A stretch of DNA of 64,000 nt from an uncultured Chloroflexia bacterium. GTDB lineage: Bacteria; Chloroflexota; Anaerolineae; Anaerolineales; E44-bin32. The notes under the pieces were generated by a model. The model was not told the DNA's origin, made no database searches, and saw only the letters and a list, made by a program, of their open reading frames with translations. The stretch is from NCBI GenBank assembly GCA_963783335.1, contig CAWAND010000010.1, forward strand, positions 1,397,990 to 1,461,989. The letters run 5' to 3'. The position numbers and the translations under genes were made by a program. Position 1 is the stretch's first letter. Each line of letters begins with the position of its first letter. Positions 21,953 through 42,493 of the stretch are shown here, in pieces.

Positions 21953-23332
21953 ATGCCTACGCTTCTGGTCCGCAACGCCTCGGTCATGGTCACCATGGAC
22001 GAGGAGCGTCGGGAGATTGCCAACGGTGGGCTTTTCGCCAAGGATGGGTGGATCGAACAGGTCGGCCCGTCCGATGAGCTGCCCGACGGGGCCGATATTG
22101 TGGTCGACGCCCAGGATCACCTGGTGCTGCCCGGCCTGATCAACACACATCACCATCTGTACCAAACTCTCACTCGGGCAGTCCCGGCGGCCCAGGATTC
22201 CAATCTCTTCGGTTGGCTCAAGACGCTGTATCCGATCTGGGCCCGCATGTCGGCGGAAGACATCCGCCTTTCCACCCAGCTTGGATTGGCTGAGCTTGCG
22301 CTCTCCGGCTGCACAACCGCCTCGGATCATCTGTACATCTTTCCCAATGATTGCCGGCTGGATGACGAGATACTGGCCGCACGCGATATTGGGCTGCGGC
22401 TGCACGCCTCACGTGGGTCGATGAGTCTGGGCGAAAGCCAAGGCGGCTTGCCGCCGGACCGGGTGGTGGAAGATGAAGATGCCATCCTGCAGGACACTCA
22501 ACGTGTAATTGAGACTTATCACCAATCGGAACCGGGTGCCATGGTCCAGTTGGTGGTGGCGCCCTGCTCGCCGTTTTCGGTGACGCCAGACCTGATGCGC
22601 CAATCCGCCGACCTGGCCAGATCTGCCGGGGTGCATCTGCACACACACCTGGCTGAGACCTTGGATGAAGAGTCGTTTTGCCTTGAGAGCTTCGGCTACC
22701 GGCCGTTGGCCTTTGTGGAACGGTTGGACTGGGCGGGCGATGACGTGTGGTTTGCCCATGCGGTGCACATCAACTCGGAGGAAGTCGGCCGAATGGCGAG
22801 CGCCGGAAGCGGGGTGGCCCACTGTCCGGGTTCCAACATGCGCTTGGCGAGTGGGCTGGCACCGGTCAGACGATATCGGAAGGCTGGCGTGAATGTGGGT
22901 CTGGGCGTGGATGGCTCAGCCAGCAACGATAGCTCCCACCTGCTGGCGGAAGCTCGCCTAGCAATGCTCCTCTCGCGCGTCGGATCGGCAATAGCGCCCG
23001 AGGTCGATCCGGGCGAGGGATTGCTGACCGCTCGGCAGGCGCTGGAAATGGCCACGCTGGGCGGGGCGGCCGTCCTTGGGCGAAAGGACATCGGGGCGTT
23101 GGCGCCAGGGATGTGCGCGGATTTCATCGGCATCGATTTGGGTCAAATCGCCTATGCCGGCGGTTTGCACGATCCAGCAGCCGCGGCGGTTTTCTGCACG
23201 CCGACGAATGTGTCATTCAACTACGTGCACGGTAGGCCCGTAGTATCAGAAGGCCAGGTGACCGGCGTCGACATGAATGTGTTGATCGAAAAACACAACC
23301 GGGCGGCCTTGGCCTTGATTCGGGGCGACTGA
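21953..23332 (+). CDS. Amidohydrolase of the 8-oxoguanine deaminase / AtzB-like clade
   Basis: 459 aa. LLVRNASVMVTMD..PGLINTHHHLYQTLTRAVPAAQDSNLFGWLKTLYPIW is the block I associate with 8-oxoguanine deaminase-type enzymes. Metal ligands HxH, H, H, D present. Confidence 0.75.
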   Translation: MPTLLVRNASVMVTMDEERREIANGGLFAKDGWIEQVGPSDELPDGADIVVDAQDHLVLPGLINTHHHLYQTLTRAVPAAQDSNLFGWLKTLYPIWARMSAEDIRLSTQLGLAELALSGCTTASDHLYIFPNDCRLDDEILAARDIGLRLHASRGSMSLGESQGGLPPDRVVEDEDAILQDTQRVIETYHQSEPGAMVQLVVAPCSPFSVTPDLMRQSADLARSAGVHLHTHLAETLDEESFCLESFGYRPLAFVERLDWAGDDVWFAHAVHINSEEVGRMASAGSGVAHCPGSNMRLASGLAPVRRYRKAGVNVGLGVDGSASNDSSHLLAEARLAMLLSRVGSAIAPEVDPGEGLLTARQALEMATLGGAAVLGRKDIGALAPGMCADFIGIDLGQIAYAGGLHDPAAAAVFCTPTNVSFNYVHGRPVVSEGQVTGVDMNVLIEKHNRAALALIRGD

Positions 23333-23371
23333 TGTCTGCCCCTTTTACCGTTGTCTTCATGAGGTGTTTGC

Positions 23372-25171
23372 ATGTCTGATCGTGATTGGAGTGAGATCTC
23401 GCGTGAGCTGACCGATGTCGCCATGGGGCGCATCCCGGCGGACATGATCATTCGCAAGGGGAAATGGGTTTGTGTCCAATCGGGTGAAATCATCGACGAG
23501 ATCGACGTCGCCATCAAGGGCGAACGCATTGCCTACGTCGGTCAGGGCAGCCAGCATTGTGAGGGGCCAGAAACGCAAATCATCGACGCCGAAGGCCGCT
23601 ATCTGGTGCCTGGCTTGATCGACGGCCACATGCACGTCGAATCGGGCATGGTCACGGTCACCGAGTTCGTGCGGGCCGTCCTACCCCATGGGACGACGGC
23701 GATGTTCATTGACCCCCACGAAATCGCCAACGTGTTCGGCCTGAAGGGTGTTCGAATGATGGTGGATGAAGCCGCCATCCAGCCCGTGCATGTCTGGGTC
23801 GAAATGCCCTCATGTGTCCCGTCCGCGCCCGGCCTTGAAACGCCGGGCGCCGTGTTAGGGCCAGATGATGTGGCCGAAGCCATGACCTGGCCAGGGATCG
23901 TTGGGTTGGGTGAGATGATGAACTTTCCCGGCGTGTTTAACAGCGACGAGAAGATGCACGCAGAGATGGCGCGCACTCGGGAGGCGGGCAAGGTCATCGG
24001 CGGCCATTATGCAGCTCTCGATCTGGGGCTTCCCTTCCACGGCTACGTCGCTGGGGGGGCGGAAGACGATCATGAAGGCACGCGGGTCGAGGACGCGGTG
24101 GCCAGGGTCAGGCAGGGGATGAAAGCCATGCTTCGCTTGGGCTCGGCGTGGCACGATGTCGCTGCGCAACTCCCGGCGATCACCGAACTGGGGCTGGACC
24201 CGCGGCACTTCATCCTGGTCACGGACGATTCTCACTCAGGAACCTTGGTGCACGACGGGCATATGGACCGCGTCGTGCGGCATGCCATCGATCTAGGCCT
24301 CGATCCGATGATCGCCCTGCAGATGGCGACATTGAACCCGGCTGAGCATTTCGGTCTGGCGCGCGACATCGGGCAGATCGCACCCGGCCGGTACGCGGAT
24401 GTTGTGCTGGTCCAGGACCTTAAAGATTTCCATGCCGATCAAGTTGTTGCCAGAGGCCAGCTGGCGGCCAGCGGGGGCGAGCTCCTGTTGGATGTCCCCC
24501 AATTCAGCTACCCAGCCGAAGTCAAGGCCTCGGTCCGCCTGGGGCGACAGCTGACCGCCGGTGATTTCGCAGTGCCCACCCGGGCCGAGGGCAGCGTAGA
24601 AGTCAATGTGATCGGCGTCATCGAGAATCAAGCACCGACCAGGCACTTGCGGCTGGAACTGCCTGTGGCTGATGGCCAGGTGCTGTGCGACAACGACCAG
24701 AATGTGGCCAAGGTGGCGCTCGTTGAACGGCATCGCGGCACCGGGGAGGTGCAGGTCGGCTTCGTGCAGGGCTTTGGGATCAATACAGACTGCGCATTTG
24801 GCTCGACCGTGGCACACGATTCCCACCACATGCTCATTGTGGGCACCAAGGATGAGGACATGGCCATTGCCGCCAACGAACTCGCCCGCGTCGGCGGCGG
24901 ACAGATTGTGGTGCGTGAGGGGAACGGTGAGGCGTTGGTCGAGCTGCCCATCGCTGGCCTTATGTCCAACGAGCGCGCCGAGATCGTGGCTGATAAGGCT
25001 GAATCGGTGCTGGCGGCGATGAGGGACTGCGGTTGTGATTTGAACAACGCCAATATGCAGCTCAGCCTTTTGGCCCTGGTCGTGATTCCAGAGCTGCGCA
25101 TCTCCGATCGCGGCCTGGTGGACGTCGAAACCTTTGCAGTTATCCCGGTGATCGCCGAGGAGGCTGACTAA
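23372..25171 (+). CDS. ade: Adenine deaminase
   Basis: 599 aa. PGLIDGHMHVESGMVT..HGTTAMFIDPHEIANV..and the C-terminal Ade-specific domain (NLCDNDQNVAKVALVERH..GFVQGFG..STVAHDSHH). Confidence 0.88.
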   Translation: MSDRDWSEISRELTDVAMGRIPADMIIRKGKWVCVQSGEIIDEIDVAIKGERIAYVGQGSQHCEGPETQIIDAEGRYLVPGLIDGHMHVESGMVTVTEFVRAVLPHGTTAMFIDPHEIANVFGLKGVRMMVDEAAIQPVHVWVEMPSCVPSAPGLETPGAVLGPDDVAEAMTWPGIVGLGEMMNFPGVFNSDEKMHAEMARTREAGKVIGGHYAALDLGLPFHGYVAGGAEDDHEGTRVEDAVARVRQGMKAMLRLGSAWHDVAAQLPAITELGLDPRHFILVTDDSHSGTLVHDGHMDRVVRHAIDLGLDPMIALQMATLNPAEHFGLARDIGQIAPGRYADVVLVQDLKDFHADQVVARGQLAASGGELLLDVPQFSYPAEVKASVRLGRQLTAGDFAVPTRAEGSVEVNVIGVIENQAPTRHLRLELPVADGQVLCDNDQNVAKVALVERHRGTGEVQVGFVQGFGINTDCAFGSTVAHDSHHMLIVGTKDEDMAIAANELARVGGGQIVVREGNGEALVELPIAGLMSNERAEIVADKAESVLAAMRDCGCDLNNANMQLSLLALVVIPELRISDRGLVDVETFAVIPVIAEEAD

Positions 25172-25172
25172 C

Positions 25173-25919
25173 TTGGCACGCAGAAAACGGGGCAAGCGGA
25201 CCCGACCCCTGTACCAGAAGACGGCCGACGCATTGGAGAAGATGCTGGCGGGACTCTCGCCGGGTACCTTCCTCCCGTCCGAGCCTGATTTGGCCAAAAA
25301 GCTGGGGGTTTCACGCGCCACGCTGCGGGAGGCAATGCGACCACTGGAGGCGAAGGGGCGTGTGGTCCGCCGTCAGGGCGTGGGGACATATGTCGTTGAG
25401 CCGCCCCAGGTGATCGAAACCGGCCTGGAAGTGCTGACCAGCATCCAGGCTTTGGCCTCGCGCATGGGGATGACTGTTGAAATGACGGATCTAAACGTCA
25501 CCGTGCGGCGCATCGACGGGCCCGATGACAGCCCGCTCCAGAGCCCGCAAGGGGGGCGCGTGGTGGACGTCTCCCGGGTCATCGTCGCCACCGACAGGCC
25601 GGTCGCCTACCTTGTGGACACCGTGCCTGAGGATATCCTCTCCGCCGAATCGCTTAGGGAAGACTTCGACGGTTCGGTGCTCGAGATCCTCCAAATGCGC
25701 GGCGAGCCGGAACTCGATCGGTCTCAGGCCGAGATCACAGCCACGACCGCCACCTCCAAGATCGCCAAGAGTCTCGGCATCCAGCGGGGTGACGTCCTCT
25801 TGTATCTGGAAGCCTGCCTGTACGACTCATCCGGCCGTGTTGTCGACCATTCACGCAGTTATTTCTTGCCCGGCACTTTTCGTTTTCATGTTGTACGCCG
25901 GGTGGACCAAGCAATGTAG
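25173..25919 (+). CDS. GntR-family (HutC/UTRA subfamily) transcriptional regulator
   Basis: TTG start 1 nt after the ade stop. wHTH LPSEPDLAKKLGVSRATLREAMRPLEAKGRVVRRQGVGTYV plus a UTRA-like effector domain. Confidence 0.85.
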   Translation: MARRKRGKRTRPLYQKTADALEKMLAGLSPGTFLPSEPDLAKKLGVSRATLREAMRPLEAKGRVVRRQGVGTYVVEPPQVIETGLEVLTSIQALASRMGMTVEMTDLNVTVRRIDGPDDSPLQSPQGGRVVDVSRVIVATDRPVAYLVDTVPEDILSAESLREDFDGSVLEILQMRGEPELDRSQAEITATTATSKIAKSLGIQRGDVLLYLEACLYDSSGRVVDHSRSYFLPGTFRFHVVRRVDQAM

Positions 25920-25949
25920 CTCAGGGAGGAGGCGGCAAAGAGCACGATT

Positions 25950-26028: not shown

Positions 26029-26979
26029 ATGAGAAGTTTTGCAGGACGCGACATTCTGTCGCTTAAGGAATTTGAACGTGAAGAGTTCTTCCGGGTGTTC
26101 GAAGTTGCCGATGAATTGGCGCCGTTCGCCCGTGATCGACGCAATACCGACCTCTTGGCCCACAAGACCATGCTGACGGCCTTCTACCAGCCGAGCACGC
26201 GAACTCGCATGGCGCACGAAGCCGCCATGCACCGCTTGGGCGGGCATGTGCTCGGGTTCGCCGATGTCAAGAACACGCGCGCCGGGGACTTCTATCAAGA
26301 GTCGATCAAAGACACCGTCCACATGTTGGAGTTCTACGGCGATGTGATCGTGATGCGCCACTTCCAACAGGGTGCGCCGGCCGAGGCGGCCCGTTGGGCG
26401 AGCATCCCCATCATCAATGCCGGCGACGGTTGGGGTGAACATCCCACCCAGGTGCTGACCGACATGTACACCATCTACAAGGAGCGGGGCACACTCGATG
26501 GCCTGCATTTCCTCTTGGTGGGTGACATGCGCATGCGCACAATGCATTCCATGAGCTATGCCATGTCGCAGTTTGACATCGAGGCGACATACATTTCGCC
26601 GCCGGAAATGTCGCTGACCGATGAGTTCAAGGCCGAGATCGACAAGCTCAACTTGCGCTATCGCGAGGTTGATCACATCAACGAGGCCATCGCAGATGCG
26701 GACGTGATCTACATGGAGCCCGTGGTGCAGCCGGACTACACGAAGGCGCGCGACGAGCGGTCCGGCGACGTCGGCCTCACGCCGGCCAACTATCAGGTCA
26801 CTTTGGACGTGATGAAGAAGGCCAAGCCAGACTCGATCATTCTGCATTCACTGCCGCGGATGGACGAGCTCCTTCCAGAAGTCGACGCCACACGTCATGC
26901 CCGCTATTGGGTGGAAGCGTTCAACGGCGTTGTGATGCGCATGTCGCTGTTGGCTCTGGTTCTGGGGATGATGGAGTAG
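26029..26979 (+). CDS. Aspartate-carbamoyltransferase-like transcarbamylase with divergent second-substrate loop
   Basis: 316 aa. STRTR, GEHPTQ and HSLPRMDEL motifs as in PyrB. The usual S-x-x-KGE-x-x-DT loop reads KNTRAGDFYQESIKDT. Confidence 0.7.
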   Translation: MRSFAGRDILSLKEFEREEFFRVFEVADELAPFARDRRNTDLLAHKTMLTAFYQPSTRTRMAHEAAMHRLGGHVLGFADVKNTRAGDFYQESIKDTVHMLEFYGDVIVMRHFQQGAPAEAARWASIPIINAGDGWGEHPTQVLTDMYTIYKERGTLDGLHFLLVGDMRMRTMHSMSYAMSQFDIEATYISPPEMSLTDEFKAEIDKLNLRYREVDHINEAIADADVIYMEPVVQPDYTKARDERSGDVGLTPANYQVTLDVMKKAKPDSIILHSLPRMDELLPEVDATRHARYWVEAFNGVVMRMSLLALVLGMME

Positions 26980-27039
26980 CGTGCCATGCGGGCCGCGGGG
27001 TGATGCCCCGGTGGTCCCTGACATGAGCAGGAGGTGATG

Positions 27040-28020
27040 ATGCAAACCAATCTTCGTGGTCGCGATCTGATAAGCGACCTTGATTTCAGCCGGGAAGAGG
27101 TCGAAACTGTCCTCGACGTGGCATTTGACATGAAGCGCAAGCGGGCACTGGGCGAGCCGCATGCCTATCTGCGCGACAAGGTGCTGGCCATGCTGTTCTT
27201 CTTCAGCAGCACCCGCACGCGTGGGTCGTTCGAAGCCGGAATGGCACAACTGGGTGGCCACGCGGCGTTCATCGAATCGCGCACAACCCAGATTTCACAC
27301 GGTGATACCGAAAAGGAAATGGGCGAGATTTTCGGCCGCTATTTCGACGGCATCGCAATCCGGCACGTCGATTGGGGGATCGGCAACCGGTACCTCAATC
27401 TGGTGGCTGAGGCTTCACGAGTGCCTGTGCTCAATATGCAGTGCGAGTTCTACCATCCCCATCAGATCTTGGCCGATTTGATGACGATCATAGAGAAGAA
27501 GGGCCGCGATCTGCGCAAGAAGAAGATGGTTGTCTCTTGGGCATACGCTTCCTCGTACTTGAAGCCAATCTCCGTGCCCCAATCCCTGATCTTGCAGATG
27601 CCACGCTTTGGATTGGACATCACCCTGGCCCATCCTCCGGAGTTTAAACTGATGCCGGACATCATGGACCAGGCGCGAGAGCAGGCCAAACGATTTGGCA
27701 CCGGCTTTGATGTGACCGACAATATGGAAGAAGCCTTCAAAGATGCCGACGTGGTCTATGCCAAATCTTGGGGTCCGCTGCTTACAACGCAAGACACGGA
27801 GAAGGGCAAGGAGATTCAGGACCGCTACAAGGACTGGATCACTGACGAGAAGAAGATGGCGCTGGCGAAATCGGATGCCATCTACATGCACCCGCTGCCG
27901 GCGGATCGCAACGTCGAAGTCACCGATGGCGTGATCGATGGCCCACACAGCGTGGTGTTCGATGAGGCTGAGAACCGTTTGCATGCCCAGAAGGCCGTTA
28001 TGGCCTTGACGATGGCTTGA
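27040..28020 (+). CDS. Ornithine-carbamoyltransferase-family transcarbamylase, specificity unknown
   Basis: FFFSSTRTRGSFEAG, YHPHQILADL, MHPLPADRNVEVT, FDEAENRLHAQKAVM. The ornithine motif DxxxSMG reads DVVYAKSWG. AGGAGG at 27029-27034. In-frame starts at 27034, 27037 and 27040. Confidence 0.75.
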   Translation: MQTNLRGRDLISDLDFSREEVETVLDVAFDMKRKRALGEPHAYLRDKVLAMLFFFSSTRTRGSFEAGMAQLGGHAAFIESRTTQISHGDTEKEMGEIFGRYFDGIAIRHVDWGIGNRYLNLVAEASRVPVLNMQCEFYHPHQILADLMTIIEKKGRDLRKKKMVVSWAYASSYLKPISVPQSLILQMPRFGLDITLAHPPEFKLMPDIMDQAREQAKRFGTGFDVTDNMEEAFKDADVVYAKSWGPLLTTQDTEKGKEIQDRYKDWITDEKKMALAKSDAIYMHPLPADRNVEVTDGVIDGPHSVVFDEAENRLHAQKAVMALTMA

Positions 28021-28028
28021 GGAGACCC

Positions 28029-28989
28029 ATGGAACAATCAAACAACGAGCGGAAGCTGGCGGTGGTGGCCGTCGGGGGCAACTCCCTGATCAAGGATAAG
28101 GCCCACCAGACGATCCCGGATCAGTACGCTGCAGCCGGCGAATCCATGGCCCACTTGGCTGACATGATCGAAGCCGGCTGGGACGTGGTGATCACCCATG
28201 GGAACGGACCCCAAGTGGGCTTCATCCTGCGGCGTTCAGAACTGTCCATTGACGAGCTCCACCCTGTCCCGCTGGACTACTGCGGTGCGGATACGCAGGG
28301 AGCCATCGGTTACATGTTCCAGCGGGCGCTGCACAATGAGTTCAAGTCCCGTGGTCTGAACCGCCAGGCGGCGACTGTGGTCACTCAGGTGGAGGTCGAC
28401 CGAGAAGATCCGGCCTTCCAGAATCCGAGCAAGCCAATCGGCACCTTCATGGACGAGACGACTGCCAAGCAGCACGCGCGAGGATGAAGGTTGGGCGGTG
28501 GTGGAGGATTCTGGGCGCGGGTGGCGGCGGGTGGTCCCGTCGCCGAATCCCAAGCGGATCGTCGAGCGCGACGCCATCGAAACCCTAATCAAGGCAGGCT
28601 TCATCGTGGTCAGTGTGGGCGGTGGGGGAATCCCCGTTGTCGCTGACGAGGCTGGGGCATTGAAGGGGGTTGAAGCGGTCATCGACAAAGACTTCGCCTC
28701 CTCTCTTATGGCCTCGAGTATCGGCGCAGACTTGCTCCTGATCTCGACTGCCGTTGAACAGGTGGCGCTCAACTTCAACAAGCCAGACGAGAAGAAGCTG
28801 GACCGCATGACACTGGCGGAAGCCAAGACCTACCTGGCTGAAGGGCATTTCGCCAAAGGCAGCATGGAACCCAAGATACGAGCGGTCATCGGTTTCTTAG
28901 AGCGCGGAGGCAAGGAAGCCTTGATTACCGACCCGCCCAACATCCGGCGGGCTTTGCAGGGAGAAACTGGGACACGGATTGTCCCCTAG
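28029..28989 (+). pseudogene. arcC: Carbamate kinase, split (28017..28487 / 28498..28989) by a frameshift in the CG run at 28474-28482
   Basis: N-part KLAVVAVGGNSL..VVITHGNGPQVG..SKPIGTFMDETTAKQHARG*. The +1 frame continues EDEGWAVVEDSGRGWRRVVPSPNPKRIVE..VVSVGGGGIPVV..AVIDKD. The KPIG-to-GRGW distance matches the family if one base of CACGCGCGAGG is removed. Confidence 0.88.
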
Positions 28990-29088: not shown

Positions 29089-30384
29089 ATGAGTAGCACC
29101 ATGAAATGGCGAGTCCTCGGAGGGCTGATGATCGCTGCCATGCTGGTGGCGGCCTGCGGCCCGGCGGCGACGCCGACCCAGGCGCCACCTCCAGCAACGA
29201 CGTCGTCGGAAGCCACGATGGCACCGGAAGCCACGATGGCATCTGAGGCCACGTCGGCCCCCGCTGCCAAGGCGCCTGTGCTCGGTCTGCTGATGGTCGG
29301 CCCTTACAACGACCACGGCTGGAGCCAAGCGCATTACGATGGCGCGCAGTACGTGGCCGACAACTTGCCCGGGTTTGACTTTGTCTATATCGACAAGGCA
29401 AACTCGGCGGACCGCCCCGGCACGACGCCGGCTCAGCTGGCTGAGAGCCTGCTCTCCCAGGGCGCCACAGTCATCGACTTCAGTTCGGATGACATGAAGG
29501 ACAGCGCCAACGAGTTCGCTCAGGCCCACCCCGACGTCCCCGTGATCATGGCTTCTGGTGACCAGGCTTGGAAGGATGGCAAGGACTTCCAAGACCTTCC
29601 GAACATGACCAACACCATGGGCAAGATGATCTACGGCAAGATGATCGCAGGCTGCGCTGCTGCTCTGACCACGCAAACGGGCCAGATCGGCTACCTCGGT
29701 CCCCTGATCAACGATGAGACGCGCCGCTTGGCGTCTTCCGTCTATCTGGGCGCCAAGTACTGCTGGACCAACTACATGAACAAGGACGCAGCTGACCTGC
29801 AGTTCAAGGTCACGTGGATCGGCTTTTGGTTCAATATCCCTGGCGTGACGTCCGACCCCACGCAGGTGGCGGATGACTTCTTCAACAGCGGCTACGATGT
29901 GGTGGTGTCGGGCATCGACACGACCGAAGCGTTGGTGGAAGCCAACAAGTTCGCCGGCCAGGGGAAGAATGTCTGGGCAGTCTCATACGACTACAAAGAC
30001 GGCTGCGCCGAAGCCCCCAGCGTCTGCTTGGGTGTCCCGTACTTCAACTGGGGCCCGAGCTATCTGAGTATTATCAAGTCGATCCAGGATGGGTCGTTCA
30101 AGCCAAGCTTTACTTGGACCGCACCTGATTGGGCCGACATCAACAACCCAGACACCTCGGCCGTTGGCTTTGCCAAGGGCGAGGGTTTGAGCTCCGATGC
30201 GTCCGCTTCTCTGGACAAGTTCATCGGCGAGCTGGGATCGGGTCTGGATCTGTGGACCGGCCCGATCAACCTGCAGGACGGCACGGCCTATCTCCAGGAC
30301 GGTGAGAAGGCCACCGATCAGCAGATCTGGTACCTGCCTCAGCTCTTGGAGGGCATGCAAGGCCAGAGCGTCCCGTCGAACTAG
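29089..30384 (+). CDS. BMP-family (PnrA-like) ABC substrate-binding lipoprotein, probable nucleoside/purine binder
   Basis: 431 aa. Lipobox LVAAC, Thr/Ala/Pro linker, then a BMP-type body (LLMVGPYNDHGWSQAHYDG..GYLGPLINDETRR..WNYGP-like FNWGPSY). Confidence 0.8.
   Translation: MSSTMKWRVLGGLMIAAMLVAACGPAATPTQAPPPATTSSEATMAPEATMASEATSAPAAKAPVLGLLMVGPYNDHGWSQAHYDGAQYVADNLPGFDFVYIDKANSADRPGTTPAQLAESLLSQGATVIDFSSDDMKDSANEFAQAHPDVPVIMASGDQAWKDGKDFQDLPNMTNTMGKMIYGKMIAGCAAALTTQTGQIGYLGPLINDETRRLASSVYLGAKYCWTNYMNKDAADLQFKVTWIGFWFNIPGVTSDPTQVADDFFNSGYDVVVSGIDTTEALVEANKFAGQGKNVWAVSYDYKDGCAEAPSVCLGVPYFNWGPSYLSIIKSIQDGSFKPSFTWTAPDWADINNPDTSAVGFAKGEGLSSDASASLDKFIGELGSGLDLWTGPINLQDGTAYLQDGEKATDQQIWYLPQLLEGMQGQSVPSN
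29209..29253 (+). repeat. 18-nt coding tandem repeat (2.5 copies) in the lipoprotein linker
   Basis: GAAGCCACGATGGCACCG / GAAGCCACGATGGCATCT / GAGGCCACG encoding EATMAP-EATMAS-EAT. Confidence 0.9.
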
Positions 30385-30403
30385 ACGGACGGATGAACCG
30401 CCA

Positions 30404-30435
30404 GGGGGTGGGCCGGCCTTCGGCCGCCCACCCCC
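30404..30435 (+). other. GC-rich intercistronic hairpin after the binding-protein gene
   Basis: GGGGGTGGGCCGGCC-TT-CGGCCGCCCACCCCC (about 14 bp, one bulged C), no U-tract. Lies between the SBP stop (30384) and the ATPase start (30454). Confidence 0.6.
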
Positions 30436-30453
30436 TCTCCCCTTGGGGCAATC

Positions 30454-31944
30454 ATGAAAGTCGAATTGCGAGATATCCATAAGTCCTTCGGGCCGGTCCA
30501 TGCCAATGATGGGATCACCCTGGATATCCCAGCGGGGACAATCCAGGGCCTGCTTGGAGAAAACGGCGCTGGAAAGAGCACCTTAATGAAGTCTCTTTCC
30601 GGCTTCATGGAACCGGACAGCGGGCAGATCTTGCTGGACGGGAAGCCGGTCAGCATGAAATCTCCTGCCGACGCCATCGCCCACGGCGTCGGCATGCTTC
30701 ACCAGGATCCTCTTGATTTTCCTCCTATGCGGGTGATCGACAATTTCCTCATCGGGGGTGATCCGTCACTGTTGCCGAAGCGTGGCAAGGCGCGTCGAGC
30801 GCTCCGTGAACTGGGAAATCAGTTTGGTTTCTCGCTGGATCCAAATGCCTACGTGGACACCTTGACCGTCGGCGAACGGCAGCAGCTTGAAATCCTGCGC
30901 CTTCTTTGGCTCGGGGTTCGGGCGATGATCCTCGACGAGCCGACGACCGGGATCAGTGCACCTCAGCGTGAAAAGCTGTTCAAGACTCTCAAGCGCCTGG
31001 CGGAAGAAGGCCGAACGATCATTTTCGTCTCCCACAAGTTGGAAGAGGTTGAGGATCTCTGCCACCGTGTGGCCGTCTTGCGCGAGGGGCGGCTTGTAGG
31101 CGAGGCGGAGGCGCCGTACACAACTTCCAAATTGGTGGGCATGATGTTTGGCAAAGAGGTCGCCCTGATCCCACGCACGCCGAGCTACGGCGAGACACCG
31201 GTACTGCAACTTCAGGGGGTATCTATCGAAGACCCGCGGCTGAGTATTGAGGATGTCAATCTGGACGTCCGCGAAGGGGAAGTGATCGGCCTAGCGGGCA
31301 TGGAGGGGAGCGGTCAGCGACTGTTCCTGCAAACTTGTGCCGGGCTTGTGCGCCCGGTCGCCGGTAGGATCTTGCTGGACGGCGATGACATGGCCGGGCG
31401 GCACTACCATGACTTCAAATCGAAGGGCTGTGCCTTTATGCCGGCCTCGCGTTTGGAAGAGGGCCTGATCCCCGGCATGACCCTCACTGAGCACTTCATT
31501 TTGACGCGCCCCGCCAAGGGGCTCTTTGTCAACTGGGAGAAGGGGCGCGCCAGCGCGCGGGAAGGGATAGCGGAATTCTCGGTGCGAGGTGAACCGTATT
31601 CGACGGTTAAGTCGCTGTCGGGAGGCAATCAGCAGCGTGCCCTGCTTGCTTTGTTGACATCGAACCTCCGATTGCTGCTGATGGAGCAGCCGACTCGCGG
31701 GCTGGACATGGAGTCGGCGATCTTCACCTGGGAGAAGCTGAAGGAGCGCTGTCAGGAGGGAACGGCTGTGGTGTTTGTGTCATCCGATCTAGAAGAGCTC
31801 CTGCACTACAGTGACCGGGTGCTGGTATTTTTCGCGGGCAAGGTCTCTCAGCCCCTCGAATCTCGGGATGTCAGCGTCGAGCGTTTGGGGGAGCTCATTG
31901 GAGGCATAGGGCTGGACCAGCCCAATGGGGCGCATGATGAATAA
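30454..31944 (+). CDS. ABC transporter ATP-binding protein (duplicated ATPase, CUT2/nucleoside type)
   Basis: 496 aa. Walker A GENGAGKST, signature LTVGERQQLEI, Walker B MILDEPT, and a degenerate second cassette (LSGGNQQR, LLLMEQPTRGLD). Confidence 0.9.
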   Translation: MKVELRDIHKSFGPVHANDGITLDIPAGTIQGLLGENGAGKSTLMKSLSGFMEPDSGQILLDGKPVSMKSPADAIAHGVGMLHQDPLDFPPMRVIDNFLIGGDPSLLPKRGKARRALRELGNQFGFSLDPNAYVDTLTVGERQQLEILRLLWLGVRAMILDEPTTGISAPQREKLFKTLKRLAEEGRTIIFVSHKLEEVEDLCHRVAVLREGRLVGEAEAPYTTSKLVGMMFGKEVALIPRTPSYGETPVLQLQGVSIEDPRLSIEDVNLDVREGEVIGLAGMEGSGQRLFLQTCAGLVRPVAGRILLDGDDMAGRHYHDFKSKGCAFMPASRLEEGLIPGMTLTEHFILTRPAKGLFVNWEKGRASAREGIAEFSVRGEPYSTVKSLSGGNQQRALLALLTSNLRLLLMEQPTRGLDMESAIFTWEKLKERCQEGTAVVFVSSDLEELLHYSDRVLVFFAGKVSQPLESRDVSVERLGELIGGIGLDQPNGAHDE

Positions 31945-32995
31945 TCAAAGTTCACGCTGGTTTGACCTTAGCTTCAGATTTGGGGCTGTCATCCTGGCCT
32001 TTGTGTTTACTGTGGCAGTTCTCATCTTTTCCGGAGCCCCTCCGCTCGAGGCGTTTGGCCAACTGGCACTTGGTGCGTTTGGGTCGGTTGAGAACTTCGC
32101 CAACGTGATGGTCGCCTGGGTGCCTCTGCTCCTGGCAACAGCCGGGCTGCTGGTGACATTCGCCGCCGGGCTTTGGAACATCGGCATGGAGGGCCAGATC
32201 ACGCTGGGGGCCATTTTCGCCACGGGGGTGCTGCGCATGATGCAAGACAGCGGCCTCCCCCCGATGGTTATGATCTTGGTCGCCATCTTGGCGGGTGCGA
32301 TCGGAGGCGCGCTGTGGGCTGGCCTTGCCGGTGCTTTGAAAACATTCGGTGGCGTGAATGAAATCTTCGGCGGGCTTGGCCTCGACTTCGTCGCCACGGC
32401 CATCACCCTGTGGCTGATTTTCGGGCCATGGAAGCGGCCGGGGATCGGCTCGATGAGCGGCACGGTGCCGTTCCCGCGAGAGATGTGGATGCCGATGCTG
32501 CCCCATCTGCGCTTGAGCCTGTGGGCATTGATCATCGGCATCTTGGGAACGATCGCCGTCTATTTCCTCTTGCAGGGCACCTACTTTGGACTCCGCCTCA
32601 AAGCGGTCGGCCGTAACAGACGAGCGGCCAATCTGGCGGGCATCCCAACCTCTACATACATGATGAACGCGTTCCTGATTTGCGGTCTGTTCGCGGGTGT
32701 GGCGGGAGCAATTCAGGTGACTTCCGTCTATCATCGGCTGATCCCATCGATTTCGAGCAACTATGGATGGTTGGGGCTGTTGGTGGCCATGCTGATCAAT
32801 TACCAGCCTGTGTGGGCGGCACCGGTGTCCTTATTCTTCGCCGCGCTCAACATTGGGAGCATCCAGCTTCCCATTGTCCTCAAACTGGACTCTTCCCTGT
32901 CTGGCGTTCTTCAGGGCGCCCTGGTGCTCGCGTTTCTGATGATGGAAGGCGCCCGGCGCAAACTTACCAGAGGGCAAGGGGAGACGCAGTCATGA
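31925..32995 (+). CDS. ABC transporter permease 1
   Basis: 356 aa, about 9 TM helices, overlaps the ATPase stop. Alternative in-frame ATGs at 31934 and 31937. Confidence 0.85.
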   Translation: MGRMMNNQSSRWFDLSFRFGAVILAFVFTVAVLIFSGAPPLEAFGQLALGAFGSVENFANVMVAWVPLLLATAGLLVTFAAGLWNIGMEGQITLGAIFATGVLRMMQDSGLPPMVMILVAILAGAIGGALWAGLAGALKTFGGVNEIFGGLGLDFVATAITLWLIFGPWKRPGIGSMSGTVPFPREMWMPMLPHLRLSLWALIIGILGTIAVYFLLQGTYFGLRLKAVGRNRRAANLAGIPTSTYMMNAFLICGLFAGVAGAIQVTSVYHRLIPSISSNYGWLGLLVAMLINYQPVWAAPVSLFFAALNIGSIQLPIVLKLDSSLSGVLQGALVLAFLMMEGARRKLTRGQGETQS

Positions 32996-33990
32996 CCACA
33001 GCCGCCATTCTTACCGGCCTGGCCGGCGTCCTGGCTTCGGCCGCCCCGATCGTGTTCGCCACCATCGGTGAGACGCTCACCGAACGGGCCGGTGTTATCA
33101 ACCTGTCTGTCAACGGAACCATTGTGTTTTCCGCCATGACGTCCTTCGCTGTGGCCGTGACCACCGACAGCATCTGGTTGGGCTTTTTAGCCGGCATGCT
33201 GACCGGAGCCCTGGTGGCACTGGTTCTGGCCTTCACGAGCCTGACCCTCAAGCAATCGCAGGTTGCCGTGGGCTATGTTCTGGCGTTGATGACCCTGAGC
33301 CTGGCATACTTCCTCGGCAACCCATTTGTCGGGATACAAGGACCAAGAGTGCCCTCCCTGCCCATACCCCTCCTGAGCGGAATTCCAATCGTCGGCCCCC
33401 TGTTCTTCAATCAAAACGCCCTTGTCTACATCAGCTTTGTGCTGATCTTCGCCGCCTGGTTCTGGGTGTTTCGAACGAGACCGGGGTTGATGCTCCGCGG
33501 CATTGGTGAACGGCCAGCGGCGGCCTTTGTGCGCGGCGCCAATGTCCCACTGATGCGCTACACATACACCATGATCGGTGGTGCGCTGGTCGGCCTGGCG
33601 GGTCCGACATTCTCGCTCAGCGTCAAGGCCGGCTGGAAGGGGACCATCAGCGGGCTGGATGGCTTCGGTTGGATCGCGTTGGCCCTGGTGATCTTTGGGG
33701 GCTGGGATCCCATCCGGGGTGCCGTTGGCGCGTATCTGTTTGGGCTGCTTCAATGGCTGGGTGTGGTGCTGCAACCGAGTCTGCCCAACGTGCCTTCCCA
33801 AGTGCTGCAGGTGGCACCATTCCCGCTCATGATCTTGACGCTGTTGCTGGTCAATATCGGCAACGCCGACTGGGTCGATCGCACGTTGGCTGGATTGCCG
33901 CCGGATGCCAGGCGAGTCGCAGCCAGTGTCCTGCGCTCGATGCGCGTTTCGCCTCCGGCTGCGCTGGGTACAACTTTCGAGAAGGATTGA
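32992..33990 (+). CDS. ABC transporter permease 2
   Basis: ATGA overlap with permease 1. MTTAAILTGLAGVLASAAPIVFATIGETLTERAGVINL. The tracked ORF 32680..33990 has a spurious 104-codon N-extension. Confidence 0.85.
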   Translation: MTTAAILTGLAGVLASAAPIVFATIGETLTERAGVINLSVNGTIVFSAMTSFAVAVTTDSIWLGFLAGMLTGALVALVLAFTSLTLKQSQVAVGYVLALMTLSLAYFLGNPFVGIQGPRVPSLPIPLLSGIPIVGPLFFNQNALVYISFVLIFAAWFWVFRTRPGLMLRGIGERPAAAFVRGANVPLMRYTYTMIGGALVGLAGPTFSLSVKAGWKGTISGLDGFGWIALALVIFGGWDPIRGAVGAYLFGLLQWLGVVLQPSLPNVPSQVLQVAPFPLMILTLLLVNIGNADWVDRTLAGLPPDARRVAASVLRSMRVSPPAALGTTFEKD

Positions 33991-33998: not shown

Positions 33999-35267
33999 AT
34001 GGCTTTTGAAGCTGGTTACCGCTGCTCAGAATGCGGCCGAGAGTACTCATTTGCTGAACCGATATACACCTGCCCCGAGGACGGGGCTAATCTGGACATT
34101 GTGTTCGACTATCAGGCGCTGGGTCATTCCACGACCCCGGCTTCAATCGGAGAGTCTGCTGAGGCCTCCATCTGGCGCTATCTGCCTCTGCTGCCCGTCT
34201 CCGCTCCGGGTCATTTCGGGACCGCGCTGCGTGCCGTCGGTATGACCCCGCTTTTGGGACCGCCGGCGCTTCGGCAAGCCCTCGACCTGCCCGACCTATG
34301 GGTCAAGGATGATGGCCGCAACCCCACGGCTTCGTTCAAGGATCGTGCCAGTGCTGTAGTGGTGCGCAGGGCGGAGGAAATCAAGGCGTCGATCGTAGTG
34401 ACCGCCTCGACGGGCAACGCTGGTGCTGCACTGGCGGGGATGGGGGCGGCGGCTGGCATGCCGACCGTCATCCTGGCGCCAAAGACGGCCCCGCGAGCTA
34501 AGGTCGCCCAGCTGCTGATGTTCGGCGCCCGGGTCATCTTGGTGGACGGCACCTACGATGATGCCTTCGATCTCTCCGTTCAGGCGTCAAACACCTTCGG
34601 CTGGTACTGCCGCAATACTGGCTACAATCCATTCACGGCCGAGGGAAAGAAGACGGCCGCCTTCGAGATCTGCGAGCAGCTCGGTCGAGCCTCCAACTCG
34701 TCCAGCCGAGCAACCTGGAAGGCGCCCGACGTGGTGTTTGTCTCTGTGGGGGATGGCAACATCATCAGTGGGCTGCACAAGGGCTTTGTGGATTTGCTTG
34801 CCCTTGGGTGGATTTCAAAGGTCCCCCGACTGATTGGGGTTCAGGCGAAAGGCTCATCGGCCATCTACAATGCATTCGCCAGCGGATCGGACAAGATTCA
34901 ACCGGTGAAAGCAGATACCTTGGCCGACAGCATCTCTGTCGATTTGCCGCGAGACGGGCAGCGTGCGTTGCGCGCCGCTCGCCAGTCCGGCGGGGCCTAT
35001 GTCCAGGTCGAAGATGACGACATCCTGGCCGCCATGCGCCAACTGGGACGCCAGGCGGCTGTCTTCGCTGAGCCCGCCGGCGCCACGGCCCAGGCCGGGC
35101 TGCTCCAGGCGCTGGACGCCGGACTGGTCACGCCGGAGGAGCAGATTGTCGTGATGGTCACGGGCAGTGGCCTGAAGGATGTGGACGCTGCCATGCAGGC
35201 CACCGGCGAGGCGCAGGTGATCGAACCCAACCTTGATGCCCTGTCGGAGGTGGTGGAGCGCTCATGA
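33999..35267 (+). CDS. Threonine-synthase-like fold-type-II PLP enzyme with N-terminal Cys-rich ribbon
   Basis: ATG 33999 inside tracked ORF 33669..35267, 8 nt after the permease stop. YRCSECGREY..TCPEDG, PLP lysine in NPTASFKDRAS, GNAGAALA, glycine loop VSVGDGNI. Confidence 0.7.
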   Translation: MAFEAGYRCSECGREYSFAEPIYTCPEDGANLDIVFDYQALGHSTTPASIGESAEASIWRYLPLLPVSAPGHFGTALRAVGMTPLLGPPALRQALDLPDLWVKDDGRNPTASFKDRASAVVVRRAEEIKASIVVTASTGNAGAALAGMGAAAGMPTVILAPKTAPRAKVAQLLMFGARVILVDGTYDDAFDLSVQASNTFGWYCRNTGYNPFTAEGKKTAAFEICEQLGRASNSSSRATWKAPDVVFVSVGDGNIISGLHKGFVDLLALGWISKVPRLIGVQAKGSSAIYNAFASGSDKIQPVKADTLADSISVDLPRDGQRALRAARQSGGAYVQVEDDDILAAMRQLGRQAAVFAEPAGATAQAGLLQALDAGLVTPEEQIVVMVTGSGLKDVDAAMQATGEAQVIEPNLDALSEVVERS

Positions 35268-40921: not shown

Positions 40922-41068
40922 GGACGTCAGTTGCTTCCTCTAAGGGCAGCCTCCGGGCTGCTCTTTGGATTCTGTCAGCCATCGCTCAGGCGACTCTCCT
41001 TTCGGAAGTCCTATAATGTGAGAGCCCGCCATTACCGATTTCAACCTGCCCGGGCAGAGGAGAGGCGC

Positions 41069-42493
41069 ATGGGAAACAAAGTGATCAAAGGGGGGACCCT
41101 GATCACCGCTGAGGAGACGTTCAGCGCGGACATTCTGATAACCGACGAGCGGATCACCGCAATCGCCGAGCAGTTCGACGGTGTGGAGGCGGAAGTGATC
41201 GACGCCACAGACAAGCTCGTGCTGCCCGGCGGCATCGATCCGCATACCCATTTCAATCTTCCCATGTTCGACACGGTGTCATCTGATGACCACTACACCG
41301 GACACAAGGCAGCCGCCTTTGGCGGAACCACCACCGCTCTCGACTTTGTGCCTCAGCTTGACGAGGGAAGCTTGCGAGCTGGCGTCGATGAATGGCACGA
41401 GCGGGCGGACAGCCGGGCGGCCATCGATTTTGGATTCCACGCCAACATCACCCAACTCGATAAGGCTGTGTTGGATGAAATCCCTTCGCTGGTTGATCAG
41501 GGCATCACAACCCTGAAGGTGTTCACGGCCTACAATGGCCGTCTCAGACTCCAGGACGGCGAGATCTTCCAGGTGATGCGAAAAGGTGCCGAGCATGGGA
41601 TGCTGACCATGCTGCACGCAGAAAACGGGGACGTGATCGACGTGCTTGTGCGTGAGGCACTTGCCGCCGGCCACACATCGGCAGAGTTCCATGCGCGCAC
41701 CCGGCCCGCCTGGGGAGCCGTAGAGGCATTCCTGCGGGCGGTTGCCCTGGCGGCTCAAGCTGAATCCCCCCTGTATGTGGTGCACATGAACACGGCTGGG
41801 GAGGTCGATCAATTGGCCTATGCGAGGGCAAAGGGCTTGCCGGTGATGGGTGAGACATGCCCCCAGTACCTCTTTTTCAGCGACGATCTGCTGGCGCGTC
41901 CGGACGGCGCCAATTGGGTCTGTTCACCGCCGCTTCGGACTCCCGAAGATCAACGCGGCCTGTGGCAGGGCCTTAGCCACGACGTCATACAGACGGTGGG
42001 CACCGACCACTGTCCCTTCTTCTCGGATGGCTCCCGGCCGATCGAATACGAAGGCAAGCCGGTTGCCATCCCCGGAAAGGAACTCGGCGCCGGTGATTTC
42101 ACCAAGATCCCCAACGGCTTGCCAGGGGTAGGGGACCGACTCCCGATTCTGTGGTCCTACGGCGTGGGCCAGGGACGCCTGACACCCAACCAGTTCGTGG
42201 CACTGACAAGCACGAATCCGGCCAAGATCTTCGGCCTGTATCCCCGCAAGGGCACGCTGGTGCCGGGCGCGGACGCCGATATTGCCATCTGGGATCCTGA
42301 AGAGCGGCTGACCTACGGAGTGGCCCACGCCAAACATCGCACAGACTACAACTTGTACGAAGGCTGGGAACTTAAGGGGTTCCCGGAGAAGGTCTTTCTG
42401 CGTGGGCAGATGATTGTCGATGGAGATCGCTGGCTAGGCAAGGCTGGGATGGGCCGCTTTCAACATCGGCTTCCGGGCGCTGCCGTCCTCTAG
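41069..42493 (+). CDS. hyuA: D-hydantoinase / dihydropyrimidinase-type cyclic amidohydrolase
   Basis: 474 aa from ATG 41069 (AGAGGAGAGG upstream). GGIDPHTHF, carbamylated-Lys block GITTLKVFTAY, LHAENGD, YVVHMN, ETCPQYL, SPPLR, GTDHCPF. Confidence 0.88.
   Translation: MGNKVIKGGTLITAEETFSADILITDERITAIAEQFDGVEAEVIDATDKLVLPGGIDPHTHFNLPMFDTVSSDDHYTGHKAAAFGGTTTALDFVPQLDEGSLRAGVDEWHERADSRAAIDFGFHANITQLDKAVLDEIPSLVDQGITTLKVFTAYNGRLRLQDGEIFQVMRKGAEHGMLTMLHAENGDVIDVLVREALAAGHTSAEFHARTRPAWGAVEAFLRAVALAAQAESPLYVVHMNTAGEVDQLAYARAKGLPVMGETCPQYLFFSDDLLARPDGANWVCSPPLRTPEDQRGLWQGLSHDVIQTVGTDHCPFFSDGSRPIEYEGKPVAIPGKELGAGDFTKIPNGLPGVGDRLPILWSYGVGQGRLTPNQFVALTSTNPAKIFGLYPRKGTLVPGADADIAIWDPEERLTYGVAHAKHRTDYNLYEGWELKGFPEKVFLRGQMIVDGDRWLGKAGMGRFQHRLPGAAVL

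What the first reader, a model, noticed from the sequence alone, without database searches (positions are those of the whole stretch)
26029..28989. Two different transcarbamylases in tandem with carbamate kinase, both with altered second-substrate motifs
**Seen:**
- An ATCase-like protein keeps STRTR/HPTQ/HxLPR, but its KGE-containing loop reads AGDFYQE.
- An OTCase-like protein keeps STRTR/HPxQ/HPLPA, but its DxxxSMG ornithine motif reads YAKSWG.
- Carbamate kinase follows, with the previous stop 8 nt before its ATG.

**Established:** catabolic transcarbamylase + carbamate kinase pairs make ATP from ureido compounds (arginine deiminase, agmatine and oxalurate routes). The enteric purine locus has a single YgeW + YqeA pair.

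**Inference:** two distinct ureido intermediates, for example from both rings or both ureido groups of an opened purine, are phosphorolysed here.
Basis: partly seen in the sequence, partly recalled or inferred. Interest (0 to 1): 0.55.

Follow-up and report, generated by a model that had tools for sequence, protein, structure and literature searches.

The report
Two carbamoyltransferases in a urate-breakdown operon
An Anaerolineae bacterium's anaerobic uric-acid breakdown cluster carries two different carbamoyltransferases plus carbamate kinase but lacks the usual YgeY amidase, so it probably gains ATP from both urea-like groups of the opened purine instead of one.

Summary
At 26029-28989 lie an ATCase-like gene (TC1), a second transcarbamylase (TC2) and a carbamate kinase (CK), with the motifs as described.

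- **CK:** it carries a 1-nt insertion near 28480. Near-identical contigs lack it, so it is probably an assembly error.
- **Not pyrB/argF:** a canonical ArgF lies elsewhere in the genome. Same-genus relatives keep a pyrC-pyrB-pyrFE operon as well as TC1.
- **Context:** the window is a Chloroflexota version of the reductive (2,8-dioxopurine) urate pathway published in 2025. It has Se-type XDH, an F420 reductase, SsnA and HyuA.
- **TC2:** a compact counterpart of E. coli YgeW. "YAKSWG" is the YgeW-type motif.
- **TC1:** a tightly conserved clade of the function-unknown "pseudo-ATCases" described in 2013. It keeps every carbamoyl-phosphate residue but has lost the aspartate beta-carboxylate binders.
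- **Comparative pattern:** related operons read GntR-YgeY-TC2-CK, GntR-YgeY-TC1-TC2-CK or GntR-TC1-TC2-CK. Apart from three incomplete assemblies, YgeY was missing only where TC1 is present.

Best reading (about 55%): TC1 replaces the YgeY amidase by phosphorolysis, giving two ATP per urate. No enzyme was assayed, and independent contrasts are few.

Earlier notes of this scan cover neighbouring parts of the same genome only.

The parts
26029..26979 (+). TC1: ATCase-derived ('pseudo-ATCase') carbamoyltransferase. The carbamoyl-phosphate site is intact; the aspartate side-chain site is remodelled.
   Evidence: Pfam OTCace_N and OTCace. Alignment to E. coli PyrB and orthologs. Monophyletic clade with SH-aLRT 99, apart from PyrB. 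AF2 model pLDDT 89.7 with an ATCase fold.
27034..28020 (+). TC2: compact YgeW-type carbamoyltransferase (probable start 27037 or 27040).
   Evidence: 36% identical to E. coli YgeW and shares its NxQC..HPxQ, SWAY..KPxSVPQ and VY[AP]KSW[GA] motifs. Groups with YgeW, support 98. Tracks SsnA and YgeY across Chloroflexota.
28029..28989 (+). Carbamate kinase, split here by a 1-nt insertion near 28476-28480.
   Evidence: The halves match carbamate kinase model NF009007 at positions 3-142 and 153-314. Intact at 319 aa in L012, L013, L016 and G003.
25173..25919 (+). GntR/UTRA regulator directly upstream. It marks the conserved slot where YgeY and/or TC1 sit.
   Evidence: Pfam. It lies directly upstream of TC1 in 44 of the related loci.
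21953..25171 (+). 8-oxoguanine-deaminase-type amidohydrolase and adenine deaminase (purine entry steps).
   Evidence: NF006055 663 bits and TIGR01178 506 bits, both over their cut-offs.
29089..33990 (+). BMP/PnrA-type ABC importer.
   Evidence: Pfam. Syntenic in most related loci.
33999..35267 (+). ThrC-like PLP enzyme, a candidate stand-in for the missing diaminopropionate ammonia-lyase YgeX.
   Evidence: A better ThrC match lies elsewhere in the genome. No YgeX ortholog was found. Homologues sit in the same clusters across phyla.
40931..42493 (+). HyuA-type D-hydantoinase.
   Evidence: TIGR02033 515 bits, cut-off 393.
42887..44245 (+). SsnA ring-opening amidohydrolase.
   Evidence: NF005540 501 bits, cut-off 444.
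44272..49437 (+). F420 recharge and biosynthesis genes, plus an LLM-class F420 oxidoreductase (putative 2,8-dioxopurine reductase).
   Evidence: Proposed for Chloroflexota in PMC12507026.
51412..60281 (+). XdhC, FAD/2Fe-2S subunit, DUF6909, Mo subunit, YqeB and YqeC-MocA (selenium-type xanthine dehydrogenase set).

Best explanation
The three genes are the energy-conserving end of a Chloroflexota version of the reductive (2,8-dioxopurine) uric-acid pathway.

1. XDH, an F420-dependent reductase, SsnA and HyuA would open the purine to 2,3-diureidopropionate.
2. TC2, the local counterpart of E. coli YgeW, removes one ureido group by phosphorolysis.
3. TC1, an ATCase-derived enzyme, removes the second. 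Enteric bacteria hydrolyse that group with the YgeY amidase.
4. Both carbamoyl phosphates go to the one carbamate kinase, giving two ATP per urate instead of one.
5. The diaminopropionate left over is probably deaminated by the cluster's ThrC-like and/or CysK-like PLP enzymes.

By analogy with ATCase, TC1 most likely acts on the N-alpha (2-) ureido group and TC2 on the 3-ureido group.

**Shown here:** gene identities, motifs, phylogenetic placement, synteny and distribution.

**Inferred:** substrates, order of steps, ATP yield and the role of the PLP enzymes.
For: - **Pathway context in the window:** SsnA, HyuA, a Se-type XDH set and an F420 LLM reductase are all present. This matches the published pathway, in which YgeW plus YqeA make ATP from 2,3-diureidopropionate and YgeY hydrolyses the other ureido group.
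- **No YgeY or YgeX ortholog in the genome:** the best scores are 47 and 53 bits against cut-offs of 321 and 276.
- **TC2 is YgeW-like** in its motifs and in the tree. It co-occurs with SsnA in Chloroflexota.
- **TC1 looks like a working enzyme with a new second substrate.** It keeps S52, T53, R54, T55, R105, H134, Q137 and the alpha-carboxylate binder R167. It has lost K84, R229 and Q231. The replacement loops are invariant over 72-97% identical orthologs.
- **Three operon states fill one slot after GntR:** YgeY-TC2-CK, YgeY-TC1-TC2-CK and TC1-TC2-CK.
- **Distribution among 61 genomes with TC2:** of 23 with TC1, 14 lack YgeY. Of 38 without TC1, 35 have YgeY; the other 3 assemblies are only 58-84% complete.
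- **TC1 is tied to this module.** It is followed by TC2 in at least 58 of 64 loci, and CK lies within 4.5 kb downstream in at least 54 of them. Purine genes lie within the fetched stretch in 66 of 80 loci. TC1 sits directly before CK in an Acidimicrobiia MAG.
Against: - No activity was measured for any of these proteins.
- Nine genomes keep both YgeY and TC1, so the two are not strictly exclusive.
- The TC1/YgeY pattern rests on about 2-4 independent losses. An independent-pairs test on the TC2 tree is not significant.
- G000 is 89.6% complete. It encodes one CN-hydrolase and five M20 peptidases far from the cluster, any of which could hydrolyse a ureido group.
- The two 2025 papers disagree on which ureido group YgeW attacks, so the regiochemistry proposed here is by analogy only.
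- The reported intermediate is R (D) configured, whereas ATCase uses L-aspartate.
- CK is frameshifted in this assembly.
Confidence: 0.55

Rival explanations
1. TC1 serves a different ureido compound that merely shares the kinase. Candidates are N-carbamoyl-beta-alanine from pyrimidine breakdown via the dihydropyrimidinase-type HyuA, allantoate or ureidoglycine as proposed for Rubrobacter UGTCase, or N-carbamoyl-aspartate.
For: - Another pseudo-ATCase group was shown indirectly to act on allantoate/ureidoglycine.
- HyuA here passes the dihydropyrimidinase model.
- Genomes with YgeY, TC1 and TC2 together could mean three distinct jobs.
- Shi et al. predicted catabolic beta-alanine or aspartate transcarbamylases.
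Against: - No allantoinase, uricase or dihydropyrimidine dehydrogenase was recognised among the window ORFs scanned.
- TC1 lacks the group-1 HPLA and AIA motifs.
- TC1 lies with purine genes in 66 of 80 loci and is almost always followed by TC2.
- This reading does not explain why YgeY is lost only where TC1 exists.
Confidence: 0.2
2. Both transcarbamylases act in the urate pathway, but TC1 works at a different step. It might remove the exocyclic ureido of ureidomethyl-hydantoin before HyuA, or duplicate TC2's step. An unlinked hydrolase then removes the last ureido group.
For: - The order of ureido cleavage is unsettled even in E. coli.
- Unlinked M20 and CN-hydrolase genes exist in G000.
- YgeY and TC1 coexist in nine genomes.
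Against: - TC1 sits in the YgeY slot and replaces it in the operon.
- No complete TC1-less genome lacks YgeY.
- R167, the alpha-carboxylate binder, is kept. That argues for an open-chain N-carbamoyl amino acid rather than a hydantoin.
Confidence: 0.13
3. TC1 is a non-catalytic or regulatory partner of TC2: a pseudoenzyme or a heteromer subunit.
For: Tandem paralogs with tight linkage. The name 'pseudo-ATCase' comes from the literature.
Against: - All catalytic and carbamoyl-phosphate residues are invariant.
- In some genomes TC1 lies next to CK or YgeY while TC2 is encoded elsewhere.
Confidence: 0.05
4. An ordinary anabolic pyrB/argF pair that happens to lie next to arcC.
For: - TC1 scores 254 bits on TIGR00670, just over its cut-off of 237.
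- No other pyrB was found in this assembly.
- Public annotations call TC1 aspartate carbamoyltransferase.
Against: - The whole pyrC-pyrB-pyrFE operon is missing from this 89.6%-complete assembly. It is present alongside TC1 in same-genus G003 and G001.
- TC1 lacks RxQxER and K84.
- A canonical ArgF with DxxxSMG and HCLPA lies on contig 6.
- The tree separates TC1 and TC2 from PyrB and ArgF.
Confidence: 0.02

Closest known systems
E. coli / Clostridium sporogenes YgeW-YqeA module of the 2,8-dioxopurine (reductive urate) pathway (bioRxiv 10.1101/2025.04.24.650524; PMC12507026)
   Same: - A carbamoyltransferase plus carbamate kinase inside an SsnA-HyuA-XDH cluster.
- TC2 shares YgeW's second-substrate motifs and groups with it in the tree.
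- Phosphorolysis of a ureido group of 2,3-diureidopropionate is coupled to ATP formation.
   Different: - Here there are two transcarbamylases and no YgeY amidase or YgeX lyase.
- TC2 is about 70 residues shorter than YgeW, lacks its insertions and fails the YgeW models.
- The reductase is F420-type rather than YgfK or UacX.
Pseudo-ATCases of Barba et al. 2013 (PMC4016543), especially the Nocardioides sp. JS614 gene next to a ygeW homologue, xdhABC and hyuA
   Same: - ATCase-branch paralog with STRT and HPTQ kept and RxQ lost.
- H[ST]LP motif.
- Tandem with a YgeW-like gene in a purine context.
- Coexists with a true PyrB.
   Different: - The function of that group was left open.
- The 240s-loop residues of TC1 (PVV/VQP) fit their group 3 motif better than group 2, so group assignment is unresolved. 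The Nocardioides sequence itself was not available here.
- No link to YgeY or to ATP yield was drawn.
Ureidoglycine carbamoyltransferase (UGTCase, Rxyl_2847) of Rubrobacter xylanophilus
   Same: An ATCase-derived catabolic transcarbamylase followed by carbamate kinase in purine breakdown.
   Different: - It belongs to the oxidative route (uricase, allantoinase) and acts on allantoate.
- It carries HPLA and AIA motifs that TC1 lacks.
Arginine deiminase and agmatine deiminase pathways (catabolic OTCase or PTCase + carbamate kinase)
   Same: The same energy logic: ureido compound + phosphate gives carbamoyl phosphate, which gives ATP.
   Different: They use one transcarbamylase per substrate molecule, and different substrates and enzyme subfamilies.

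Membership tests
Aspartate carbamoyltransferase (PyrB) | Carbamoyl-phosphate motifs SxRT, HPxQ and HxLP | tested here: met
   TC1 has STRTR, HPTQ and HSLPR.
Aspartate carbamoyltransferase (PyrB) | RxQxER motif in the 240s loop (R229, Q231) and K84 in the 80s loop, which bind aspartate | tested here: not met
   TC1 has EPVVQPDYT and TRAGDFYQE instead. The same holds in all TC1 orthologs.
Aspartate carbamoyltransferase (PyrB) | Passes the curated family models | tested here: inconclusive
   TIGR00670: 254 bits against a cut-off of 237 (pass). NF002032: 227 against 263 (fail).
Aspartate carbamoyltransferase (PyrB) | Clusters with bona fide PyrB and lies with pyr genes | tested here: not met
   The PyrB of G003, G001 and G030 sits between pyrC and pyrF/E and is at most 41% identical to TC1. 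It falls in a separate clade.
Pseudo-ATCase (Barba 2013) | ATCase-branch paralog that keeps STRT and HPTQ, lacks RxQ, and coexists with a true ATCase in another context | tested here: met
   Which of their three groups it belongs to is unresolved.
UGTCase (pseudo-ATCase group 1) | HPLA motif, AIA/AIS/SIA at the RxQ position, and allantoinase context | tested here: not met
   TC1 has HSLP and PVV. No allantoinase or uricase was recognised among the window ORFs scanned.
YgeW-type knotted carbamoyltransferase (YTCase) | Passes NF005538 or TIGR03316 | tested here: not met
   TC2 scores 196 and 190 bits against cut-offs of 453 and 500.
YgeW-type knotted carbamoyltransferase (YTCase) | Proline-rich loop, extended 120s loop and a VYPKSWAP-type 240s motif | tested here: met
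   TC2 has SWAYASSYLKPISVPQS, HVDWGIGNRY and VYAKSWGP, aligned to the E. coli YgeW equivalents.
YgeW-type knotted carbamoyltransferase (YTCase) | YgeW-specific extras: extended 240s loop with two helices, internal insertions and a C-terminal extension | tested here: not met
   All are absent from TC2, which has 328 aa against 396.
YgeW-type knotted carbamoyltransferase (YTCase) | Trefoil-knot fold | tested here: inconclusive
   The AF2 model of TC2 reached only pLDDT 55 and was not searched.
Ornithine carbamoyltransferase | DxxxSMG and HCLP motifs | tested here: not met
   TC2 has YAKSWG and HPLP. The genome's real ArgF (L001) has DTWVSMG and HCLPA.
Carbamate kinase (arcC / NF009007) | Full-length match to the family model in one open frame | tested here: inconclusive
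   In the window it is two frames that match model positions 3-142 and 153-314. It is one intact 319-aa frame in L012, L013, L016 and G003.
Reductive (2,8-dioxopurine) urate pathway cluster | XdhD-type Mo enzyme, SsnA, HyuA, a carbamoyltransferase and carbamate kinase | tested here: met
Reductive (2,8-dioxopurine) urate pathway cluster | YgfK or UacX reductase, YgeY amidase and YgeX diaminopropionate ammonia-lyase | tested here: not met
   No YgeY or YgeX ortholog in G000. An F420 LLM enzyme stands where YgfK would be.

The most novel reading that the evidence does not exclude
A fully phosphorolytic ending of anaerobic urate breakdown. An ATCase-derived enzyme acts as a catabolic N-alpha-carbamoyl-2,3-diaminopropionate phosphorylase, an activity not yet described. 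It replaces the YgeY amidase and doubles substrate-level ATP from one to two per purine. The trait is spread through hundreds of environmental Anaerolineae species. It would also settle which ureido group each enzyme type attacks.
Probability: 0.5. Interest if true: 0.72.

Novelty: new variant of a known kind. Interest (0 to 1): 0.62.

Why it matters
The reductive urate pathway was worked out only in 2025, and the order and regiochemistry of its two ureido cleavages are still disputed.

- **A natural experiment.** This variant has one ATCase-like and one YgeW-like transcarbamylase and no amidase. Each enzyme's substrate can be tested directly.
- **Energy yield.** If both steps are phosphorolytic, purine fermentation yields twice the carbamoyl-phosphate-derived ATP. 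That would matter for slow-growing anaerobic Anaerolineae, which are abundant in sediments and digesters.
- **An orphan family.** It would give a first function to a large family annotated everywhere as "aspartate carbamoyltransferase". At least 587 stretches in the species-representative genome collection encode a relative.
- **Engineering.** It offers a part for urate-degrading probiotics with better energy coupling.

Tried and rejected
- **TC2 structure:** the AF2 model came out at pLDDT 55. It was too poor for a fold search, so the knot question stays open.
- **First TC2 tree:** it used wrong-frame ORFs for 17 rows and was discarded. One search is the corrected tree.
- **Independent-pairs test of TC1 presence against YgeY absence:** only 4-6 contrasts, and none went the wrong way. 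Median p was 0.5, so no statistical claim is made.
- **Nearest non-TC1 pseudo-ATCases (P0132, P0137, P0130):** they lie among unrelated genes (HMGL-like, aminotransferase, SDR, DHO_dh). They say nothing about TC1's substrate.
- **Promoter and terminator scan of 25800-29200:** nothing above the shuffled expectation.
- **Simple 'TC1 always replaces YgeY' idea:** rejected, because nine genomes carry both.
- **'TC1 can be the only transcarbamylase' idea:** rejected, because the five apparent cases encode a TC2- or YgeW-type gene: elsewhere in four, and beside TC1 in the fifth, G285.
- **Unpublished genome G175:** it was left out of the tree and of all counts given here. It appears only in the raw tallies.
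Full report
**What is there**

Three co-directional genes fill 26029-28989.

- **TC1 (26029-26979, 316 aa)** has both transcarbamylase Pfam domains. Its best solved relative is Pyrococcus abyssi ATCase.
- **TC2 (27034-28020)** has the same two domains. It matches OTCase, N-acetylornithine transcarbamylase and YgeW structures about equally.
- **Carbamate kinase (CK)** starts 8 nt after the TC2 stop.

**The kinase frameshift**

CK is in two frames. A single extra base in a CGCG run near 28480 separates 28029-28487 from 28498-28989.

- L016, a contig 99.8% identical over 5.6 kb, differs by exactly this one gap.
- Two contigs about 97% identical (L012, L013) and the same-genus genome G003 all encode an intact 319-aa kinase.
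- Sister assemblies with few contigs also show split genes.

I read it as an assembly error. A very recent mutation is not excluded.

**Not a pyrB/argF pair**

- The genome has three transcarbamylase genes. The third, on contig 6, is a textbook OTCase with DTWVSMG and HCLPA.
- The assembly is 89.6% complete and lacks the whole pyrC-pyrB-pyrF/E operon.
- Same-genus G003 and G001, and same-order G030, carry that operon with a PyrB that has AKGES and TRVQKER. G003 and G001 also carry TC1.
- Across 250 Chloroflexota genomes, hits to TC1 are bimodal. Orthologs are 72-78% identical and PyrB at most 41%.
- In a maximum-likelihood tree TC1 is one clade (SH-aLRT 99). It lies inside a radiation of ATCase paralogs that share a TRAGD-type 80s loop, apart from the genus's PyrB and from E. 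coli PyrB.
- In the same tree TC2 joins E. coli YgeW (98) rather than ArgF or ArgI. No AOTCase, SOTCase or PTCase references were available.

**The surroundings**

The window is one large purine-catabolism cluster. In order it holds:

- an 8-oxoguanine-deaminase-type enzyme, adenine deaminase and a GntR regulator;
- TC1, TC2 and CK;
- a BMP-type ABC importer;
- ThrC-like and CysK-like PLP enzymes;
- a D-hydantoinase (HyuA model, 515 bits) and SsnA (501 bits);
- F420 recharge and biosynthesis genes with an LLM-class F420 oxidoreductase;
- XdhC, an FAD/2Fe-2S subunit, a Mo subunit, YqeB and YqeC-MocA.

This is the Chloroflexota variant of the reductive urate pathway that PMC12507026 mentions for its F420 enzyme.

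In the published pathway the steps are:

1. Urate is reduced to 2,8-dioxopurine and then reduced again.
2. SsnA and HyuA open the two rings, giving 2,3-diureidopropionate.
3. YgeW removes one ureido group by phosphorolysis, and YqeA makes ATP from the carbamoyl phosphate.
4. The M20 amidase YgeY hydrolyses the other ureido group.
5. YgeX converts diaminopropionate to pyruvate.

The two founding papers disagree on which ureido group YgeW attacks. I found no paper in the library describing a two-transcarbamylase version.

**TC2**

- TC2 is 36% identical to E. coli YgeW.
- It shares the features that set YgeW apart from OTCases: NxQC before HPxQ, the proline-rich SWAY..KPxSVPQ loop, the longer 120s loop and VY[AP]KSW[GA].
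- It lacks YgeW's insertions and C-terminal extension, and it fails the YgeW family models.
- In the phylum sample it occurs in about 55 genomes, tracking SsnA (58) and YgeY (42 over cut-off). It usually lies next to CK.

I take it as the functional counterpart of YgeW.

**TC1**

- Against E. coli PyrB, TC1 keeps S52, T53, R54, T55, R105, H134, Q137 and R167, the alpha-carboxylate binder.
- K84, R229 and Q231, which hold the aspartate beta-carboxylate, are gone.
- The 80s loop is TRAGD(F/W)YQES. The 240s loop is EPVVQ(P/A)DYT with five extra residues.
- Both loops are essentially invariant in orthologs from several phylum labels.
- The AF2 model is confident (pLDDT 89.7) and superposes on PALA-bound ATCases (TM 0.88). 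Confidence is low only at those two loops.

This is the pattern of an active enzyme with a new second substrate, not a decayed copy. It fits the "pseudo-ATCases" of Barba et al. 2013, whose Nocardioides example sits next to a ygeW homologue, xdhABC and hyuA.

**Comparative evidence for what TC1 does**

- At least 587 stretches in species-representative genomes encode a relative of TC1. The best 80 loci kept are all at least 74% identical.
- In those 80 loci TC1 is followed by TC2 in at least 58 of 64 with enough downstream sequence. CK lies within 4.5 kb downstream in at least 54 of them.
- A purine gene lies within about 6 kb in 66 of 80 loci. YgeY appears in only 6.
- Five MAGs seemed to have TC1 without an adjacent TC2. 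Four encode a TC2-like gene (50-66% identical) elsewhere; the fifth, G285, has a YgeW-type gene beside TC1 and only a weak (33%) hit elsewhere.
- The slot after GntR takes three forms:
  - YgeY-TC2-CK, as in G133 and G169;
  - YgeY-TC1-TC2-CK, as in G115, G073, G097, G085 and G248;
  - TC1-TC2-CK, as in this genome, most of its family, G205, G256, G264, G025, G028 and families f51 and f28.
- G000 has no YgeY or YgeX ortholog.
- Among 61 genomes with TC2 (the unpublished G175 left out), counts are:

| | YgeY absent | YgeY present |
|---|---|---|
| TC1 present (23) | 14 | 9 |
| TC1 absent (38) | 3 | 35 |

- The three TC1-less genomes without YgeY are only 58-84% complete, and one of them has a partial hit at a contig end.
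- On the TC2 tree the YgeY-less TC1 genomes need about four changes, two of them forced by well-supported branches.
- An independent-pairs test has too few contrasts to be significant. The pattern is clean but not statistically proven.

**Mechanism proposed**

2,3-diureidopropionate has exactly two ureido groups, and this genome offers two transcarbamylases, one kinase and no pathway amidase. The simplest reading is therefore that both groups leave as carbamoyl phosphate, giving two ATP.

ATCase carbamoylates an alpha-amino group next to a carboxylate that R167 binds. TC1 keeps that residue and has lost the beta-carboxylate site. It would therefore suit 3-amino-2-ureidopropanoate, which is carbamoyl-aspartate with the beta-carboxylate replaced by an amine.

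The OTCase-side enzymes, including YgeW and TC2, act on side-chain amines, which fits the 3-ureido group. This matches the order proposed by Liu et al. It remains inference.

**Limits**

- No enzyme was assayed.
- YgeY and TC1 coexist in nine genomes.
- Unlinked M20 and CN-hydrolase genes exist in G000.
- The reported intermediate has D configuration.
- The assembly is incomplete.

**Verdict**

The locus is a new variant of a pathway known since 2025. It uses a member of an enzyme family whose function has been open since 2013.

Noticed in passing
window 33999-35267 and 36149-37721: ThrC-like and CysK-like PLP enzymes sit in the cluster. Their homologues recur beside TC1, TC2, CK, SsnA or HyuA in loci labelled Chloroflexota, Spirochaetota, Acidimicrobiia and Phycisphaerae, where the enteric cluster has YgeX. 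G000 has no YgeX ortholog and has a better ThrC match elsewhere (C10:722713). They are candidates for the diaminopropionate step.
   Followed up: partly
L005 (G003:C4:921615-923900); also G002:C6 and G013:C43: Some genomes of the same family carry a second module elsewhere. It pairs a marginal YgeY-like M20 (327-341 bits, cut-off 321.5) with a TC2 paralog (about 50% identical, FVYPKSWGP, HCMPIDRG). It may serve another ureido compound. G000 lacks it.
   Followed up: no
G000 whole assembly; relatives L004, L008, L009: The pyrC-pyrB-pyrF/E operon is absent from this 89.6%-complete assembly but present in same-genus genomes. The PyrB of these Anaerolineae reads STRTS rather than STRTR.
   Followed up: partly
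G000:C10:722713-723667; G001 and G002 transcarbamylase hits; window about 28480: Several genes in these few-contig assemblies are split by single-base frameshifts: ThrC, OTCase in G001 and G002, and TC2 in G002. This suggests systematic consensus errors rather than pseudogenes.
   Followed up: partly
L026-L028 (families f51 and f28: G118, G217, G190): Here GntR-TC1-TC2-CK lies with an XDH, a 50%-identical deaminase paralog and an amidohydrolase only about 34% identical to SsnA (about 237 bits, below cut-off). This may be a further pathway variant with a different ring-opening enzyme.
   Followed up: no
G142 (C60:130888 and C60:140638): A 99%-complete Anaerolineales genome has two SsnA copies, but the searches found no TC1, no TC2 and no YgeY. 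It must de-ureidate in some other way, perhaps with a UacY-type hydrolase.
   Followed up: no
L080 (Phycisphaerales-labelled MAG): Here TC1 lies beside a full-length E. coli-type YgeW (59% identical to E. coli YgeW) rather than the compact TC2. TC1 can therefore pair with either form.
   Followed up: no
window 54136-55884: A DUF6909 protein (729 bits) sits between the FAD/Fe-S and Mo subunits of the xanthine-dehydrogenase set. Its role is unknown.
   Followed up: no
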